Numbered from the stretch's first letter, positions 37,343 through 54,407 are shown. The stretch is DNA of 64,000 nucleotides from an uncultured Gammaproteobacteria bacterium (GCA_965231095.1 OZ246416.1:50938-114937), one strand, 5' to 3'. Made by a program: numbers and translations. The notes: generated by a model from the sequence alone, not told the origin.

Positions 37343-38020
37343 TTATACGCTAAGTTTTATTCCCGGGCCCATGGTGGTGCAAAGTACCGCGGTTTGGATG
37401 TAGACACCCTTGGATGCCGCCGGTTTGGCTTTTTTCACCACTTCAATAAACATGGTCAAATTTTCCAAAAGCTTTTCTTTATCGTAGGAAACTTTGCCGA
37501 GTAATTGATGAATATTCCCGCCATCATCATTTTTGAAATTGATTTTTCCTTTTTTTAATTCACCAATTATTTTTTTGATGTTTGGGTTAACAGTTTCTGT
37601 TTTTGGATTTGGCATCAAACCCTTTGGACCCAAAATTTTCGCGATCTGGGCCAATTTAGGCATCATGGAGGGCGTTGCCACGGCGATTTCAAAGTTTGCT
37701 CTTTCTGTGGATTTGATTTCTTTAATCAAGTCCTCACCGCCGACAATTTCCGCTCCGGCTTCTTTCGCTTCTTTTTCCAAGGCCGGTTCAACGAAAGCGG
37801 CAATTTTTTTGGTCTTGCCGATTCCGTGCGGTAAAACTAAAGTGCCGCGCACGAGCTGGTCGCCTTTTTTAGGATCAATACCAAGTTTGATGTGGACTTC
37901 CACGCCGGCATCAAATTTTTCTTTTGGTCCGTTTTTTATTAAGTCCAAAGCCTCGGCGAGCGAATAGCTCTTTTTCGGGTCAATGGATTTTTTTGTTTCT
38001 TCGTAGCGTTTTCCGCGCAT
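37343..38020 (-). CDS. rplA: 50S ribosomal protein L1
   Basis: 225 aa; GKTKKIAAFV, L1 fold motifs. Confidence 0.9.
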   Translation of the reverse strand: MRGKRYEETKKSIDPKKSYSLAEALDLIKNGPKEKFDAGVEVHIKLGIDPKKGDQLVRGTLVLPHGIGKTKKIAAFVEPALEKEAKEAGAEIVGGEDLIKEIKSTERANFEIAVATPSMMPKLAQIAKILGPKGLMPNPKTETVNPNIKKIIGELKKGKINFKNDDGGNIHQLLGKVSYDKEKLLENLTMFIEVVKKAKPAASKGVYIQTAVLCTTMGPGIKLSV

Positions 38021-38044
38021 AAGTTTTTGGTGGTAATAACGTCC

Positions 38045-38190
38045 CCCACTAATTTTGCCATCGATAGATAAAAGTAATTTTGAGTGATTAATTTATTTTC
38101 TAAATTTGTGGCGCCGCTTGCCCGAATAGGGCAGGGCTATTCGCCCTCGCGGCGCCCCCGGGATCGGGAGCAAAATTAGTGGGGGACTCC
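38045..38190 (-). promoter_or_regulatory. large structured leader upstream of rplA: 17-bp outer inverted repeat enclosing GC-rich hairpins (possible L1-binding autoregulatory mRNA mimic or inserted GC-rich element)
   Basis: tcccccactaattttgc (38046-38062) pairs with gcaaaattagtggggga (38166-38184); inner ggcgccgc...gcggcgcc and cgaatag..ctattcg stems. Confidence 0.45.
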
Positions 38191-38203
38191 CACAAATTAT
38201 TTT

Positions 38204-38641
38204 TTAAACTTCTTTATTGTTTTCTTTCGACTCTTTTGTTTCTTTGCTAATCATTTTCCAGTGCCACAAGAACAGGGGAATAGCAACAACGAGCATGGAA
38301 ATATCGCGAACAGCGTTTTTCTGTTTTCTCGCAACTTTCATAATTCCTTGCTGATCCTGCCAATTTTTATAATCAACCAACCAATTTTGAATCTGCAATT
38401 TTTCGTCGGCAGTCAGGTCGCATTTTTCCGCGCAACGCTCGGCCGTTTCACCCTGCGCCCGCTCATTAATCATGTAAGGAACCGGCGGCGCCCATTCATC
38501 GGCGCGATCAGCGTTTTTAAAGACCCAAGTTTTGAGGCCGAGATTTGCGAGATCAACCGTTCCCCAAACAATCATCATTAAAGCAATCAAGGCAATCAGG
38601 TAGAAATAAACCGTTCGGATTGAGTTTAGTTTGATGGCCAT
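38204..38641 (-). CDS. hypothetical membrane protein inserted between rplK and rplA
   Basis: Start set at MAIKLNSIRTVYFYLIALIALMMIVW (TM helix); upstream track extension is GC-rich overlap with island G. Confidence 0.5.
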   Translation of the reverse strand: MAIKLNSIRTVYFYLIALIALMMIVWGTVDLANLGLKTWVFKNADRADEWAPPVPYMINERAQGETAERCAEKCDLTADEKLQIQNWLVDYKNWQDQQGIMKVARKQKNAVRDISMLVVAIPLFLWHWKMISKETKESKENNKEV

Positions 38642-38724
38642 ACATTGTAAATTAAGAGAAATAATTTTTTGTTCGCATAAAATTAGGTGGGGGAGTACTT
38701 GCGGAAGCACGCCCCCAACCTGGT

Positions 38725-38940
38725 CTACTTGGTCGCTGGTGGTGTTACGGCGTCGCCGTGATGGACGGGACAATTGGGGTCGTCTCGCTTAATCACATTC
38801 AGCTTTATCCCCATGCCAGTGCGCAAATGTCCGCAGGTGCATCTTGGGTCTACTCTGCCCAATCCGAAGCACGAGCAAACGGCAAAGTTGCAGTCGTCAT
38901 AGAATACGGCGCCGCACTTGTCACACCGGAATTCATGCAT
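38725..38940 (-). CDS. GC-rich island G: 71-aa Cys-rich putative metal-binding protein
   Basis: MHEFRCDKCGAVFYDDCNFAVCSCFGLGRVDPRCTCGHLRTG...NCPVHHGD (8 Cys, 4 His); SD GGAGG 7 nt before ATG; hairpin tgggggagtacttgcggaagcacgccccca at 38691-38722. Confidence 0.5.
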   Translation of the reverse strand: MHEFRCDKCGAVFYDDCNFAVCSCFGLGRVDPRCTCGHLRTGMGIKLNVIKRDDPNCPVHHGDAVTPPATK

Positions 38941-48628: not shown

Positions 48629-48738
48629 TTTTATATTTTAAAAATAACCAAACGATCTCGGCCGGCGAGGTCTTTTTTTACCCTCACACCAATGCATTGG
48701 TGTGAGGGTTTATTTCTCTTTGGGCTGGGGGTATAATT

Positions 48739-49692: not shown

Positions 49693-49706
49693 GGTGTGAC
49701 GGTCGG

Positions 49707-50297
49707 TTACGGGGAAGTGATGTCCTTCGTCCCGTCGTAGGGATCGCCGGAGTCGGCGGAATCGTCGGCGGGCGGCGCAGCGGGCGAGACGACCTCGACT
49801 TCCTCCTCGATGTCCTCGGCCACCACGACCGTGGTTTCCGGCGCGTCTTCGAGGATCTCGACCATCTTCATCGCCTGGCGCACACAGGCCGACAGCTCGG
49901 CGGTGGAGAAGGCGTAGGAGAGTTGTTCGAAGGTAACCCGGCGTCCTGGTTCCGTGTCCTTCGACATCCAGTGTTCGATCAGCTTGGCGAGATCATCGTC
50001 GGAGACGCGTTTCAGGATCTCCTCGATCGCGGATTTTGCGCCGTTCTCGATACCGCCGAGCATCGCCTGGCGCATGATGGGCACGGTGTCTTTCTTGTCA
50101 CCGGGCCAGATCCCGAGTAGATCGCCAACGATCTTCTCGAAGGTGTGCACTTGGGCAATGTGAGCCAGGCCGCTGGCCCGGCTCAAATTGATGTGGTGCA
50201 AGATGATCCAGATGTTCAGGACGCCGAGATCCACGAAGTGCTGGAGCATCGCCGCTAGCGTCAACTTCTTGTCTCTTTCCTTCTTGGATTCCGCCAT
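49707..50297 (-). CDS. GC-rich island D gene 2: hypothetical ~197-aa protein (helical, acidic C-terminal tail)
   Basis: MAESKKERDKKLTLAAMLQHFVDLGVLNIWIILHH...; ~62% GC; minus-strand promoter cTTGACAa-N17-TAAGGT at 50342-50370; 5' UTR palindrome CTCCGATTAATCGGAG. Confidence 0.55.
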   Translation of the reverse strand: MAESKKERDKKLTLAAMLQHFVDLGVLNIWIILHHINLSRASGLAHIAQVHTFEKIVGDLLGIWPGDKKDTVPIMRQAMLGGIENGAKSAIEEILKRVSDDDLAKLIEHWMSKDTEPGRRVTFEQLSYAFSTAELSACVRQAMKMVEILEDAPETTVVVAEDIEEEVEVVSPAAPPADDSADSGDPYDGTKDITSP

Positions 50298-50382
50298 TGT
50301 CTTCCACTCGCTCCGATTAATCGGAGTCCTTTCTATCCGCACCTTAGTTTAAAAAATAAAATTTGTCAAGATAAAAAAAGAG

Positions 50383-50445
50383 CCCGTGGATTGCTTGGAG
50401 TTGGGGCACGGGACGTGTCTCCAAAGCAATCCACGGGCTGGGTGA
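50383..50445 (-). terminator. long-stem intrinsic terminator after island D zinc-ribbon gene
   Basis: agcccgtggattgcttggag...ctccaaagcaatccacgggct ~20-bp stem followed on minus strand by ctcttttttt. Confidence 0.6.
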
Positions 50446-50608
50446 TGCCCAGCGGGTGCCGTGAGGCTGGCCGGCTGGGCTCAGTCGCGTGACCCGCCCG
50501 GGGGGTAGGAGGGCACCGGGGAGCCGACGCGAGCTTGGGGAACGGAGAGTTCTCGAGCGAACTCGCAAACTCTCACGTTATTGGTGGGTAAGTTACAGGC
50601 GGGTCTTG

Positions 50609-50881
50609 TCAGGGTCGGGGGCAGTTCCGGACGACATGCATTCGCTTGCGCCTGGCGCGGGCGACGCCGTCCGTGTACTTCTTGCCCTTGCGTTCGGCGA
50701 AAGTGTGCATCGAGCAGTAGTGCCCGGTATTCCCGCTACGGAGAATCGTTCCACAGTCGGGTTCCTGGCATCGCCGCGGCTTGCCATCGTCGGTGCTCCG
50801 ACCGCTGTCGTGCACGTCGCCGAGCGAATTGGCGCCGACCGTGCCGGTACCCTGATCCATTCCGAGCGCGCTCCAGTCCAT
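50609..50881 (-). CDS. GC-rich island D gene 1: 90-aa Cys/His-cluster (zinc-ribbon-like) protein, possibly nucleic-acid binding
   Basis: ...RRCQEPDCGTILRSGNTGHYCSMHTF...; SD GGAGGAGGAAGG before ATG; 5' UTR hairpin ccttgcgt..acgcaagg. Confidence 0.55.
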   Translation of the reverse strand: MDWSALGMDQGTGTVGANSLGDVHDSGRSTDDGKPRRCQEPDCGTILRSGNTGHYCSMHTFAERKGKKYTDGVARARRKRMHVVRNCPRP

Positions 50882-51004
50882 CCTTCCTCCTCCTCAACCT
50901 TCCCTATTATCAACTCGTCCTGTCCACCAGGCCGAGGCTTAGGGCCACCTTCCTTGCGTTTTGACGCGTGCCAATAACGCAAGGCCACCCTGTTTGTTGA
51001 TTTT

Positions 51005-51065
51005 AGAATATAATAAAAAGCTTAATTTGTCAACCCCTTGACAAATTTTAAGATTGTGGTAGAGT
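51005..51065. promoter_or_regulatory. divergent sigma70-type promoter pair with palindromic overlapping -35 boxes (TTGTCAAccccTTGACAA)
   Basis: Plus: TTGACA(51038-43)-N16-TAGAGT(51060-65). Minus: TTGACA-N16-TATTCT (plus agaata 51005-10). Perfect inverted repeat ttgtcaa/ttgacaa around cccc. Confidence 0.55.
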
Positions 51066-51071
51066 GTTCTG

Positions 51072-51388
51072 TAGGGTAATGGGGAGTCCTGTTTGGTTGA
51101 TGCCGGCAGCGCACCGGCGTCGTGGGCAGTCATTTTTTGCTTCACTCTGAATCCGGAACCCTTGGCTGGTGAACAGCGCGTTGTAGCGCGGCTGGCCTTG
51201 TGGCGAAGGACCCACGGAGTGGCCCGACAGGAACCCGGTTCGCGAGCTGCCCGTTAAGCAGACGTGGGCTGAAATCTCCCCAGCGCATCTGATCCTCCAA
51301 GTCCGCTTCGGCGGGCACGGAGGTCACCATTCTTTGCACACCGCTGCATTTCGCGTTGTGCCCGTCGGTCGAACACCCTGTTCGACCG
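51072..51388 (+). ncRNA. candidate ~320-nt GC-rich structured non-coding RNA of unknown class, driven by the island D plus-strand promoter and ending in a strong intrinsic terminator
   Basis: No plus-strand ORF with SD; CCGCuucgGCGG UUCG tetraloop hairpin, several GC stems; terminator GTCGGTCGAACaccctGTTCGACCGACtctttttt at 51354-51388. Confidence 0.45.
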
Positions 51389-52605: not shown

Positions 52606-52863
52606 CTACTTTGTTTTTTTCGCTCTCGGTTTCTTTTCTTTTTTTGTTGCCGCCATAGACGCCTTCTTTTCCATTTTTTCTTTGAATTTTTCCACGCGTC
52701 TGGCCGAATCAACTAATTTCTGTTTGCCGGTGTAGAACGGATGGCAGGCAGAACACAACTCAACCTTTATTTCTTTTAAGGTTGAGCCGACGGTAAAAGC
52801 GTTGCCGCAGGCGCAAGTCACTTTTGCTTTTGGATAATATTCTGGGTGAATTTCTTTTTTCAT
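52606..52863 (-). CDS. rpmE: 50S ribosomal protein L31
   Basis: [23 protein letters not shown]...[10 protein letters not shown]. Confidence 0.9.
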
Positions 52864-53285: not shown

Positions 53286-53621
53286 TTTTTTATTTTCAAA
53301 AATCTCTCCCCCTCCTTTCGAAGGAGGGGTTAGGGGTGGTTTTTAAAAACTCCCACCCCACCTAACCTCCCCTCGGGCAGGGGAGGAATATTGAGCATTT
53401 GCCCTTGCCCCCACACCAATTTCAGCGAGGCCATTTTTATCCGAGTTTAAAATAAAAAAATTGGTGTGGGGGCTTGCATTATTTTTGCTTTTGTGTAAAA
53501 ATAGATGAAAGTCATTTATTAATAGTAATCCCACATGTTTTGCCTTTAAAACTTGTTCCTGATCCCCGCCACTGCGGGGACCCGCAAGTTTTGGCAAAAC
53601 AGAGGTTAAAAAGGAAAATTT

Positions 53622-54407
53622 ATGCCAGAGATCCCAACAATGTTGGAAATGCTCCAGGCCGGTGTTCATTTTGGACACAAGGCCTCAAAGTGGCATCCGA
53701 AAATGAAGCCGTTTATTTTTGGAGAACGGAGCGAGGTCCACATCATCAACTTAGAAGAAACGGCGAAAAAATTAAAAGAAGCGTTAGAATTTGTCAGAAA
53801 AACAACAGCCGCGGGCGGAGTTGTTCTTTTTGTCGGTTCAAAAGAGCAAGCCAAAGAAATTGTGAAGCGCCACGCAAAAGACGCCGGCATGCCTTATGTT
53901 ACGACTCGTTGGCTCGGCGGAACTTTTACAAATTTTAAAACTATCAAGAGTGTGACTGATCGGTTTACTGATTTAAAAAACAAAACAGCGACCGGCGGAC
54001 TCGCGAAGTACACCAAAAAAGAGCAGTTGAATTTCCAAAAAGAAATTGTGAAATTGGAAGAATTGGTTGGCGGCATTGAAACTTTAAAGAAATTGCCGGA
54101 AGCGATTTTTGTCGTTGACGTCAGGGCGGAAAAAACCGCGGTGGCCGAAGCGAGAAATAGAAAAGTTCCGGTGGTCGCTCTTTGCGATACAAATATTAAT
54201 CCGGAAGATGTTGATTATCCGGTTCCTTCAAACGATGACGCGGTAAAAGCGATTGAAATGATGGTGGGACTTTTCGCCGCGGTCGCGAAAGAGGGAAAAG
54301 CGGAGTTTGAATCAAAAAGAGGCGCGGCTCCGGCTGCGGAAAAACCGGCGGCTCCAACTCCAACTCCGGCTCCGGTTACGGAGGTGAAAGAGGAAGAGAA
54401 AAAATAA
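53622..54407 (+). CDS. rpsB: 30S ribosomal protein S2
   Basis: MLEMLQAGVHFGHKASKWHPKM...; Pro/Ala-rich C-terminal tail. Confidence 0.9.
   Translation: MPEIPTMLEMLQAGVHFGHKASKWHPKMKPFIFGERSEVHIINLEETAKKLKEALEFVRKTTAAGGVVLFVGSKEQAKEIVKRHAKDAGMPYVTTRWLGGTFTNFKTIKSVTDRFTDLKNKTATGGLAKYTKKEQLNFQKEIVKLEELVGGIETLKKLPEAIFVVDVRAEKTAVAEARNRKVPVVALCDTNINPEDVDYPVPSNDDAVKAIEMMVGLFAAVAKEGKAEFESKRGAAPAAEKPAAPTPTPAPVTEVKEEEKK

What the first reader, a model, noticed from the sequence alone, without database searches (positions are those of the whole stretch)
38045..38190. Large inverted-repeat structure in the rplA leader
A perfect 17-bp inverted repeat (tcccccactaattttgc / gcaaaattagtggggga) brackets ~100 nt that include GC-rich nested hairpins (ggcgccgc...gcggcgcc; cgaatag-ggcaggg-ctattcg) immediately upstream of the L1 start codon. 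It could be an L1-binding autoregulatory mRNA mimic of the 23S L1 stalk, or another GC-rich inserted element.
Basis: partly seen in the sequence, partly recalled or inferred. Interest (0 to 1): 0.5.

Follow-up and report, generated by a model that had tools for sequence, protein, structure and literature searches.

The report
rRNA-type palindromic insert in L1 leader
The leader of the ribosomal protein L1 gene carries a conserved small RNA fold that copies L1's binding site on 23S rRNA, and in this genome alone the tip of that fold holds a 145-base palindromic element whose other copies found here all lie inside 23S rRNA genes.

Summary
A perfect 18-bp inverted repeat (38041-38058 / 38170-38187) encloses 111 nt that include a GC-rich branched hairpin, and it ends 20 nt upstream of the rplA start codon.

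1. The L1-binding mimic is real, but it lies in the flanks. On the minus strand it reads GUGG-GA-G[...]C-GUUAUUA-CCAC. The same fold lies upstream of rplA in 65 of 80 Patescibacteria loci, with strong covariation. It matches the 23S L1-stalk junction of E. coli (GGUGG-GA-G...C-G...AUA-CCACC).

2. The repeat and the GC hairpins are an inserted 145-nt element (38042-38186) that replaces the small apical hairpin. The closest relatives (L1 96-97% identical) have only a 4-7-bp hairpin there.

A metagenome scan for the two arms found copies only in 23S rRNA genes. They sit at the helix 25 tip, at the helix 63 position and in domain I. They share the 17-nt arms and the branched core. They resemble the short, ORF-less, IVS-like insertions reported in CPR rRNA.

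Most likely this is an L1 autoregulatory leader carrying a tolerated rRNA-type palindromic insert. L1 binding, RNase III cleavage and the mode of mobility are untested. The element's orientation is ambiguous.

The parts
37343..38020 (-). rplA, ribosomal protein L1, 225 aa; the gene this leader would control.
   Evidence: ORF. Pfam PF00687 is recorded on the identical protein. It is 95% identical to the L1 of a Candidatus Falkowbacteria MAG.
38021..38029 (-). Nine-nt spacer CAAAAACUU between helix P1 and the AUG. No Shine-Dalgarno-like sequence is visible.
   Evidence: Read directly. The spacer is identical in relatives L001, L003 and L085.
38030..38040 (-). 3' half of the L1-site core: 7-nt joining strand GUUAUUA (38040-38034) and the P1 3' strand CCAC (38033-38030).
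   Evidence: These are conserved columns of alignments A1/A2. Compare E. coli 23S ...GACCUUGAAAUA-CCACC.
38188..38193 (-). 5' half of the L1-site core: P1 5' strand GUGG (38193-38190) and the GA bulge (38189-38188).
   Evidence: In the training alignment A1 these columns are invariant (three of the four P1 positions and the bulge A), nearly invariant (the bulge G) or covarying (U/A, second P1 position). E. coli 23S has GGUGG-GA and the L088 23S has GGUGG-GA.
38041..38187 (-). Helix P2 of the leader as it now stands. The closing pair G38187-C38041 is probably ancestral. Everything inside it is the inserted element.
   Evidence: In the MFE fold, P1, the GA bulge, a 19-23-bp P2 and the 7-nt joining strand have the same architecture as in relatives.
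38042..38186 (.). 145-nt palindromic element, UCCCCCACUAAUUUUGC ... GCAAAAUUAGUGGGGGA, a member of a family otherwise found here only in 23S rRNA genes. Which strand corresponds to the rRNA sense is ambiguous.
   Evidence: Model R2, built from four rRNA copies, matches 38042-38186 on the plus strand at 89.1 bits, E 6e-19, full length. The minus strand matches only in the core, at 46 bits. Other copies.
38170..38186 (-). Element arm at the 5' end in mRNA sense, UCCCCCACUAAUUUUGC.
   Evidence: Identical in L086 copies 1 and 2. L088 differs at the first base. L086 copy 3 has a compensated U-to-C change.
38042..38058 (-). Element arm at the 3' end in mRNA sense, GCAAAAUUAGUGGGGGA.
38110..38156 (.). 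GC-rich branched core: an 8-bp stem GGCGCCGC/GCGGCGCC carrying two small hairpins with loops GAAUA and UAUUC.
   Evidence: Fold of -34.4 kcal/mol. Conserved in all rRNA copies. Read on the minus strand, the inner 27 nt are identical to the rRNA-sense core of L088 (sequences; difference count by hand).
38059..38109 (.). 51-nt AT-rich variable arm of the element.
   Evidence: The rRNA copies have an arm of the same length but little sequence similarity.
38179..38193 (-). Alternative 5-bp hairpin GUGGG-AGUCC-CCCAC followed by UAAUUUUGCU. It is created by the insertion, is terminator-like, and competes with P1.
   Evidence: Flagged by the consensus scan and seen as a local hit of model R1. The MFE fold does not use it.
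38204..38641 (-). Upstream gene, a DUF5671-like membrane protein. Its stop codon lies 10 nt before P1, so rplA is probably co-transcribed with it.
   Evidence: Pfam PF18920, faint. The same gene order is found in L084 and L085.

Best explanation
The region is the autoregulatory leader of rplA. A 4-bp helix P1 (GUGG/CCAC), a GA bulge, a hairpin P2 closed by a G-C pair, and a 7-nt 3' joining strand (GUUAUUA) imitate the H76/H77 junction of the 23S rRNA L1 stalk. P1 ends 9 nt before the AUG.

Inferred mechanism: when L1 exceeds the free 23S rRNA available, it binds this site and blocks translation initiation of its own mRNA.

In this genome the small apical hairpin of P2 has been replaced by a 145-nt palindromic element. 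Its 17-nt terminal inverted repeats prolong P2 into a roughly 19-25-bp helix, and its interior carries a GC-rich branched hairpin. The element belongs to a family whose other copies found here all sit in hairpins of 23S rRNA genes, that is, short ORF-less IVS-type rRNA insertions. It landed, or survived, at the one place in the leader where extra RNA does not disturb the L1-recognition core, so it is most likely a tolerated passenger.

Shown here: the structure, its conservation and covariation, the resemblance to rRNA, the absence of the insert in close relatives, and the rRNA location of the other copies.

Inferred, not shown: L1 binding, translational repression, neutrality of the insert, and any RNase III cleavage of the long stem.
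For: 1. Fold. The MFE fold of the leader gives P1, the GA bulge, a long P2 and the 7-nt joining strand, with z = -8.2.

2. Close relatives. The flanks are identical or nearly so to those of close relatives, whose P2 is a simple 4-7-bp hairpin. Examples are L003/L085 GUGGGA-GUCCGCC-AAR-GGCGGAC-GUUAUUACCACCAAAAACUUAUG, and also L083 and L084.

3. Conservation. Model R1, built from 49 such leaders, finds 69 sites in 80 Patescibacteria rplA loci. All are on the sense strand: 65 lie just upstream of rplA and 4 lie about 490 nt further upstream, the spacing expected for a site before rplK. In the window its only two hits are the two halves of this leader.

4. Covariation. 97.8% of cells are paired against 70.5% in shuffles. 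There are 154 cells with changes on both sides, 0 of 500 shuffles reach this, and slid controls give 39-53% pairing.

5. rRNA resemblance. E. coli 23S reads GGUGG-GA-GGCU...AGCC-GACCUUGAAAUA-CCACC. The L088 23S reads GGUGG-GA-CGCU...AGCG-GCCAGUGAGAUA-CCACC.

6. Literature on L1 sites. L1-binding RNAs precede rplA or rplK in many phyla and consist of a stem with a bulge carrying a G-A pair (PMC3616713). L1 domain I recognises a motif that is invariant between mRNA and rRNA (PMC2175363). Falkowbacteria are among the lineages in which helix 78 is reported lost, so their rRNA site would have the same simple architecture (PMC9297842).

7. Element family. The metagenome scan for the two arms returned only 23S rRNA genes. 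A fifth copy and truncated forms were found by inspection. The insertion sites map to the helix 25 tip, the helix 63 position and domain I. Model R2 hits the window at 89 bits and finds nothing in 494 kb around rplA in 83 other loci.

8. Literature on rRNA inserts. CPR 23S genes carry many short ORF-less inserts under 200 bp at known IVS sites (PMC11270868). IVSs are stem-loops with terminal inverted repeats that replace hairpin loops (PMC4990558).

9. Permissive site. The P2 apex is independently expanded by unrelated long palindromes in L006, L072 and L075.
Against: - No Rfam family matches the leader, here or in relatives.
- Model R1 detects the real L1 stalks only weakly: 7.2 bits in E. 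coli, where it is the best E. coli hit, and 6 bits in L088.
- P1 is only 4 bp, and its strands are 164 nt apart in this genome.
- The insertion creates a competing hairpin, GUGGG/CCCAC plus a U-rich tail, that could trap the P1 5' strand during transcription.
- The family is known from only four distinct full-length rRNA copies in two or three metagenome contigs. The scan required exact 13-nt arms, so 'rRNA only' rests on a small and biased sample.
- The covariation alignment was fitted to the model.
- Nothing shows that L1 binds, or that the insert is neutral.
Confidence: 0.72

Rival explanations
1. The element is not a passenger but a working part. Its roughly 19-25-bp stem is an RNase III site, as in 23S rRNA intervening sequences. 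Cleavage would separate rplA mRNA from the upstream DUF5671 message and reset its stability or its L1 control.
For: The rRNA copies have 17 bp plus a further roughly 7 bp of pairing, with compensatory changes. The window copy has 25-nt arms at 88% complementarity. IVS stems of this kind are cut by RNase III (PMC4990558). CPR short inserts at IVS sites are proposed to be the same (PMC11270868). The stop codon of the upstream gene is 10 nt from P1, so the two genes are probably on one transcript.
Against: There is no transcript evidence. No RNase III signature is encoded in this 64-kb window, though it is only a small part of the genome. The closest relatives do without any such stem. This is a single occurrence with no conservation.
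Confidence: 0.15
2. The whole inverted-repeat structure, including the GC-rich hairpins, is itself an enlarged mimic of the L1 stalk (H76-H78) that evolved for L1 binding.
For: It sits inside the L1 leader. A branched GC-rich domain on a long stem loosely recalls H77/H78.
Against: Relatives with 96-97% identical L1 lack it. The same element sits at helix 25, helix 63 and domain I of 23S genes, which have nothing to do with L1. The L1 stalks of the two 23S genes that carry the element have no insert. Only domain I of L1, contacting the junction motif, is needed for mRNA binding (PMC2175363).
Confidence: 0.04
3. The insertion turned the leader into a terminator or attenuator. The small hairpin GUGGGAGUCCCCCAC plus UAAUUUUGCU ends the upstream transcript, or ends it conditionally depending on whether P1/P2 forms.
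For: Terminator-like sites were called on both strands at 38179-38193. A similar CCCCCACC+UAAUUUUAU hairpin follows the 71-aa ORF at about 38680-38735.
Against: The stem has only 5 bp and the U-tract is broken. The scan found 4 such sites in the region against 2.8 expected by chance. The long-range fold is far more stable. No promoter-like site for rplA lies downstream of it.
Confidence: 0.06
4. The element is an independent small-RNA gene on the plus strand, antisense to the rplA leader, ending at the plus-strand hairpin GUGGGGGACUCCCAC plus AAAUUAUUUUUU.
For: Model R2 fits the plus strand best. There is a plus-strand terminator-like site at 38179-38193.
Against: No plus-strand promoter-like site was found. 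All other copies lie inside rRNA transcripts, not as separate genes. No Rfam match was found.
Confidence: 0.03

Closest known systems
L1-binding autoregulatory mRNA site (E. coli rplKA leader; Methanococcus vannielii L1 mRNA; the bacterial sites before rplA or rplK catalogued by Fu et al. 2013, PMC3616713)
   Same: It lies directly before rplA. It is a short helix interrupted by a purine bulge with a conserved G and A, and its sequence and shape copy the 23S H76/H77 junction. It is widely conserved with covariation, and a few relatives have dual sites before rplK and rplA.
   Different: It is found here in Patescibacteria, which that survey did not list (it named other phyla). The upper helix carries a 145-nt foreign element, so the two P1 strands are 164 nt apart. 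No Rfam model recognises it. Binding is untested.
23S rRNA intervening sequences (IVS) of Salmonella, Leptospira, Coxiella and others, and the short ORF-less insertions in CPR rRNA genes (PMC4990558, PMC11270868)
   Same: It is about 100-150 nt with terminal inverted repeats that form a long stem replacing the loop of an existing hairpin. Its distribution is sporadic and it has no ORF. Sister copies sit at the classical helix 25 site and at other peripheral helices of 23S rRNA.
   Different: This copy is in an mRNA leader, not in rRNA. Excision by RNase III is unknown. The family has a conserved branched GC core and near-invariant 17-nt arms across helices and organisms, which to my knowledge is not described for classical IVSs.
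Bacterial MITEs and palindromic repeats (Correia/NEMIS, RPE of Rickettsia, REP/BIME)
   Same: It is small and non-coding with perfect terminal inverted repeats. Several copies occur in one 23S gene, together with truncated derivatives of 68 nt and 23 nt. RPEs are known, from my own knowledge, to insert into RNA and protein genes without destroying them.
   Different: No target-site duplication is seen at any of five copies. No copy was found in 494 kb of other Patescibacteria DNA or in the rest of the window. No partner transposase is known.

Membership tests
L1-binding autoregulatory leader | Located in the 5' UTR immediately before rplA (or rplK) | tested here: met
   P1 ends 9 nt before the rplA AUG. 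Of the 69 hits of model R1, 65 are in that position and 4 lie about 490 nt further upstream, consistent with a site before rplK.
L1-binding autoregulatory leader | Helix interrupted by an asymmetric bulge with conserved G and A, copying the 23S H76/H77 junction | tested here: met
   Leader GUGG-GA-G...C-GUUAUUA-CCAC against E. coli GGUGG-GA-G...C-GACCUUGAAAUA-CCACC and L088 GGUGG-GA-C...G-GCCAGUGAGAUA-CCACC. The consensus description is in PMC3616713.
L1-binding autoregulatory leader | Structure conserved with compensatory changes in relatives | tested here: met
   97.8% of cells are paired. The second P1 pair is U-A in 52 sequences and A-U in 14. All 5 P2 pairs change on both sides. 0 of 500 shuffles reach the observed score. 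Caveat: the alignment was fitted to the model.
L1-binding autoregulatory leader | Recognised by a curated model or by the rRNA site itself | tested here: inconclusive
   No Rfam hit at E up to 10. Model R1 ranks the E. coli L1 stalk as its best E. coli 23S hit, but at 7.2 bits, E 3.4; the L088 stalk scores 6 bits.
L1-binding autoregulatory leader | L1 binds the RNA and represses translation | not testable with these tools
   Needs filter binding or EMSA, and reporter assays.
23S rRNA intervening sequence / CPR short rRNA insertion | Lies within an rRNA gene at the tip of a peripheral helix | tested here: not met
   This copy is in an mRNA leader. Its sister copies do meet the feature, at the helix 25 tip, the helix 63 position and domain I.
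23S rRNA intervening sequence / CPR short rRNA insertion | Terminal inverted repeats form a long stem that replaces the loop of a pre-existing hairpin | tested here: met
   The 18-bp perfect stem, extending to 25 nt, replaces the P2 hairpin seen in L003, L083, L084 and L085.
23S rRNA intervening sequence / CPR short rRNA insertion | Sporadic presence among close relatives | tested here: met
   Absent from relatives whose L1 is 84-97% identical. No R2 hit in 83 other loci.
23S rRNA intervening sequence / CPR short rRNA insertion | Excised by RNase III without re-ligation | not testable with these tools
   Needs transcript end mapping or in vitro cleavage.
MITE | Terminal inverted repeats | tested here: met
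   17-nt arms, identical or nearly so in five copies.
MITE | Target-site duplication flanking each copy | tested here: not met
   The flanks of the five copies share no direct repeat.
MITE | Many dispersed copies in one genome and a related autonomous element | tested here: inconclusive
   Three full and two truncated copies occur in one 23S gene. There is one copy in this 64-kb window and none in 494 kb of relatives. The whole genome and any transposase were not available.

The most novel reading that the evidence does not exclude
The CPR short rRNA inserts of this family are mobile palindromes that are not restricted to rRNA genes. They enter, or are retained only at, the apical loops of rRNA-like hairpins. 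This copy would then be the first member seen outside rRNA, captured by an mRNA element that imitates the L1 stalk of 23S rRNA. It would show that IVS-type elements move at the DNA level independently of the rRNA context, and it would give a defined family (17-nt arms plus a branched core) with which to search for the enzyme or mechanism that spreads them.
Probability: 0.25. Interest if true: 0.8.

Novelty: new variant of a known kind. Interest (0 to 1): 0.6.

Why it matters
Two known things meet here in a way I have not found described.

L1 autoregulatory sites are textbook rRNA mimics. Finding one conserved across Patescibacteria extends that class to a phylum with reduced ribosomes, parts of which lack L1 or helix 78.

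The origin and mobility of rRNA intervening sequences have been unclear since 1990. In CPR bacteria, short ORF-less rRNA inserts are common but uncharacterised. A sequence-defined family with copies at several 23S helices in different organisms, plus one copy in an mRNA leader, makes the question testable. One can census the family, look for empty and filled sites, and ask whether the mRNA copy is cut like an IVS.

It also gives a natural experiment on how much foreign RNA an L1 site tolerates in its upper helix.

Tried and rejected
- Rfam at gathering and E-value thresholds, on the window and on relatives: only tRNAs and chance-level hits, no ribosomal-leader family.
- blastn-short of the element against the window and the 80 loci: no other copy.
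- Distant search of PLSDB plasmids: only short chance matches.
- Viral contigs with a degenerate arm pattern: 0 hits.
- MITE reading: no target-site duplications and no dispersed copies.
- Promoter inside the element or upstream on either strand: none called.
- A second L1 site before rplK in the window: none. R1 hits only the rplA leader.
- Leader model R1 on real 23S L1 stalks: it finds them, but below significance.
- RNase III signature in six-frame translations of the window: none, which is uninformative for a 64-kb piece.
- Orientation of the element: unresolved. The architecture (51-nt arm, core, 13-nt arm) and model R2 favour the plus strand, at 89 against 46 bits. The 27-nt core, however, equals the rRNA-sense core of L088 when read on the minus strand (0 differences) and differs at 9 of 27 positions, which I judge to be stem-strand swaps (all compensatory), on the plus strand (sequences; counted by hand).
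- Gene conversion from a 23S L1 stalk carrying the element: not supported. The two 23S genes with the element have no insert in the L1 stalk. The 23S gene of this genome was not available.
- uORF 38061-37939 (40 aa, starting inside the element): no ribosome-binding site and not conserved, so taken as spurious.

Full report
**Setting**

The window comes from a Patescibacteria (CPR) genome close to Candidatus Falkowbacteria. Its L1 protein is 95% identical to that of a Falkowbacteria MAG.

On the minus strand the gene order is:
- secE, nusG, rplK;
- a 71-aa Cys-rich ORF;
- a DUF5671-like membrane protein (38641-38204);
- 183 nt of non-coding DNA;
- rplA (38020-37343).

The finding lies in that non-coding stretch, so it is in the rplA leader when read on the minus strand.

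**Observation**

With one more pair they form a perfect 18-bp inverted repeat (38041-38058 / 38170-38187). Complementarity extends to 25 nt at 88%. The nested GC-rich repeats are also there.

The 179-nt leader folds at -79.6 kcal/mol, against -45.4 for shuffles (z = -8.2, 0 of 200 shuffles as stable). By my estimate a perfect 18-bp inverted repeat within 250 nt is expected about 2e-4 times per 64 kb. An independent Logan assembly carries the identical sequence.

**What relatives show**

I fetched 80 loci encoding related L1 proteins from species-representative genomes, and three more from the closest protein clusters, 96-97% identical.

In the close relatives the leader is short. An example is L003/L085: GUGG-GA-GUCCGCC-AAR-GGCGGAC-GUUAUUA-CCAC-CAAAAACUU-AUG.

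The window has exactly the same flanks: GUGGGAG on the 5' side and CGUUAUUACCACCAAAAACUUAUG on the 3' side. Between them, in place of the roughly 15-nt hairpin, it has 145 nt. The predicted fold keeps the same architecture, with P1, the GA bulge, P2 and the 7-nt joining strand.

**The conserved fold is an L1 site**

A covariance model built from 49 short leaders (A1, R1) finds 69 sites in the 80 loci. All are on the sense strand: 65 lie directly upstream of rplA and 4 lie about 490 nt further upstream, the spacing expected for a site before rplK. In the window its only hits are the two halves of this leader.

On the model-fitted alignment:
- 97.8% of cells pair, against 70.5% in shuffles and 39-53% when partners are slid.
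- The second P1 pair alternates between U-A (52 sequences) and A-U (14).
- All five scored P2 pairs change on both sides.

The fold copies the L1 stalk junction of 23S rRNA. E. coli reads GGUGG-GA-GGCU...AGCC-GACCUUGAAAUA-CCACC. A CPR-type 23S gene (L088) reads GGUGG-GA-CGCU...AGCG-GCCAGUGAGAUA-CCACC.

This fits published work:
- L1-binding mRNA sites are short helices with a bulge holding a G-A pair. They occur before rplA or rplK in many phyla, and sometimes before both (PMC3616713).
- L1 domain I recognises a motif that is invariant between mRNA and rRNA (PMC2175363).
- Falkowbacteria are named among the lineages in which helix 78 is lost, so their rRNA site would have the same simple shape (PMC9297842).

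P1 ends 9 nt before the AUG. Bound L1 would therefore sit on the ribosome-binding region. This step is inferred.

Weak points: no Rfam model matches. R1 scores the true L1 stalks only 6-7 bits, although the stalk is its best hit in E. coli 23S.

**The insert is a member of an rRNA-borne element family**

The element has no second copy in the window or in the 80 loci.

A scan of metagenome contigs for the two arms, 85-115 nt apart, returned three contigs with four copies. All of them lie inside 23S rRNA genes. Inspection of one of these genes (L086) revealed three more relatives:
- a full copy with a compensated arm variant (CCACCAAUUUUGC / GCAAAAUUGGUGG);
- a 68-nt derivative;
- a 23-nt 'arms only' hairpin.

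Mapping against E. coli 23S places the full copies as follows:
- at the tip of helix 25 (replacing E. coli about 541-554), which is the classical IVS site;
- at the helix 63 position (about 1705-1773), in two different contigs;
- in domain I (about 270-300).

The helix numbers are from my own knowledge of the E. coli numbering.

The copies share the 17-nt arms, about 7 further pairs with compensatory changes, a roughly 51-nt variable arm, and a branched GC core with loops GAAUA and UAUUC.

A model of the four rRNA copies (R2) matches the window at 38042-38186 with 89 bits, E 6e-19. It finds nothing in 494 kb around rplA in 83 other loci, and the arm pattern finds nothing in viral contigs.

The 23S genes that carry the element also hold a group I intron, and one contig has a LAGLIDADG-like ORF next to the rRNA gene. 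That is typical of CPR rRNA genes (PMC9297842, PMC11270868). I did not identify these organisms further.

**Relation to known elements**

The family looks like bacterial 23S intervening sequences. Those are about 100-450 nt, have terminal inverted repeats forming a long stem that replaces a hairpin loop, and are sporadically distributed. Where tested, they are cut out by RNase III, and their origin is unknown (PMC4990558).

In CPR rRNA genes, many short ORF-less inserts under 200 bp occur at the known IVS sites and were suggested to be IVSs (PMC11270868).

I found no description of this sequence family, nor of an IVS-type element in an mRNA, in the papers searched. That search is limited to the held library.

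A MITE reading fits the inverted repeats and the truncated derivatives. It does not fit the lack of target-site duplications at all five copies.

**Why here**

The P2 apex is evidently permissive. Three other lineages (L006, L072, L075) carry unrelated long palindromic expansions at the same spot, and L013 has a two-hairpin version.

A palindrome landing anywhere else in this roughly 55-nt leader would break the L1 core or the start region. Selection alone could therefore explain the position.

The alternative is that the element is directed to rRNA-like hairpins. This cannot be decided from one non-rRNA copy.

Gene conversion from a 23S L1 stalk carrying the element is not supported. The L1 stalks of the two element-bearing 23S genes are uninterrupted. 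The 23S gene of this genome was not available.

**Open points**

- Orientation is ambiguous. The arm lengths and R2 favour the plus strand, which is antisense to rplA. The 27-nt core, however, is identical to the rRNA-sense core of L088 when read on the minus strand, and differs at 9 positions on the plus strand; I judge these to be stem-strand swaps and so all compensatory (sequences; counted by hand).
- The insertion creates a 5-bp hairpin, GUGGG/CCCAC, followed by UAAUUUUGCU. It competes with P1 and was called terminator-like. It is much weaker than the long-range fold, and I rate an attenuator role as unlikely.
- The 19-25-bp stem is a plausible RNase III substrate. If it is cut, rplA mRNA would be separated from the upstream message. 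This is untested.

**Verdict**

Its two alternative interpretations are each right for a different part of the sequence.

The leader is a new member of the known L1 autoregulatory class. The insert is a new variant of the IVS or short rRNA-insert kind, notable for sitting in an mRNA that imitates rRNA.

I give 0.72 confidence to the combined explanation. Of its parts, I rate the L1 site at about 0.85, family membership of the insert at about 0.9, and its status as a tolerated passenger at about 0.6.

Noticed in passing
window 53306-53473: A second palindrome with the same arm style (GCCCCCACACCAATTT / AAATTGGTGTGGGGGC, 65 nt, 53407-53473) and a long GC-rich hairpin (53306-53390). Both lie in a roughly 760-nt ORF-poor gap between rpmE (52606-52863, minus strand) and rpsB (53622-54407, plus strand), that is, upstream of another ribosomal protein gene. 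Rfam gave only chance-level hits.
   Followed up: partly
window 38677-38940: A 71-aa Cys-rich, GC-rich ORF (38725-38940, minus strand) sits between rplK and the DUF5671 gene. It is absent from relatives L084 and L085. It is followed by a hairpin GGUUGGGGG...CCCCCACC plus UAAUUUUAU whose 3' half resembles the element arm.
   Followed up: partly
window 49700-51300: A GC-rich island (68-72% GC against 44% overall) lies between prmC and prfA. It has one plausible 211-aa ORF (49707-50342, minus strand) and otherwise no convincing genes. A perfect 16-bp inverted repeat lies at 50381-50439.
   Followed up: no
L006:2822-2992; L072:2827-2941; L075:2851-2975: Unrelated long palindromic sequences (a GC-rich core in L006, AAAGUU-type AT-rich repeats in L072 and L075) have independently expanded the same P2 apex of the rplA leader in other Patescibacteria.
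   Followed up: partly
L030:2449-2492, L040:274-317, L051:2448-2490, L074:2416-2458: A second copy of the L1-site fold lies about 490 nt upstream of the rplA site, the spacing expected for a position before rplK. This would give dual sites like those described in Firmicutes. The intervening gene was not checked in these four loci.
   Followed up: partly
L086:504-3869 (23S rRNA gene): At least five peripheral positions of one 23S gene are capped by UCCCCCAC...GUGGGGGA stems: three full 145-nt copies, one 68-nt form (2499-2566) and one 23-nt arms-only hairpin (657-679). This looks like colonisation followed by internal deletion.
   Followed up: partly
L085:1062-1160 and L002:2790-2950: The short spacer between the DUF5671 gene and the rplA leader has also taken up other inserts in close relatives: an approximately 85-nt GC-rich piece in L085 and approximately 130 nt of TACAAATT-type palindromic repeats in L002.
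   Followed up: no
window 48680-48709: A perfect 15+15-nt palindrome, ACCCTCACACCAATG/CATTGGTGTGAGGGT, is flanked by T-rich sequence on both sides. This looks like a bidirectional terminator next to the 3' end of prmC.
   Followed up: no
window 37939-38061 (minus strand): A 40-aa ORF starts at an AUG inside the element (AUGGCAAAAUUAGUG..., 'MAKLVG') and overlaps the rplA start out of frame. It has no ribosome-binding site and is absent in relatives, so it is probably spurious.
   Followed up: partly
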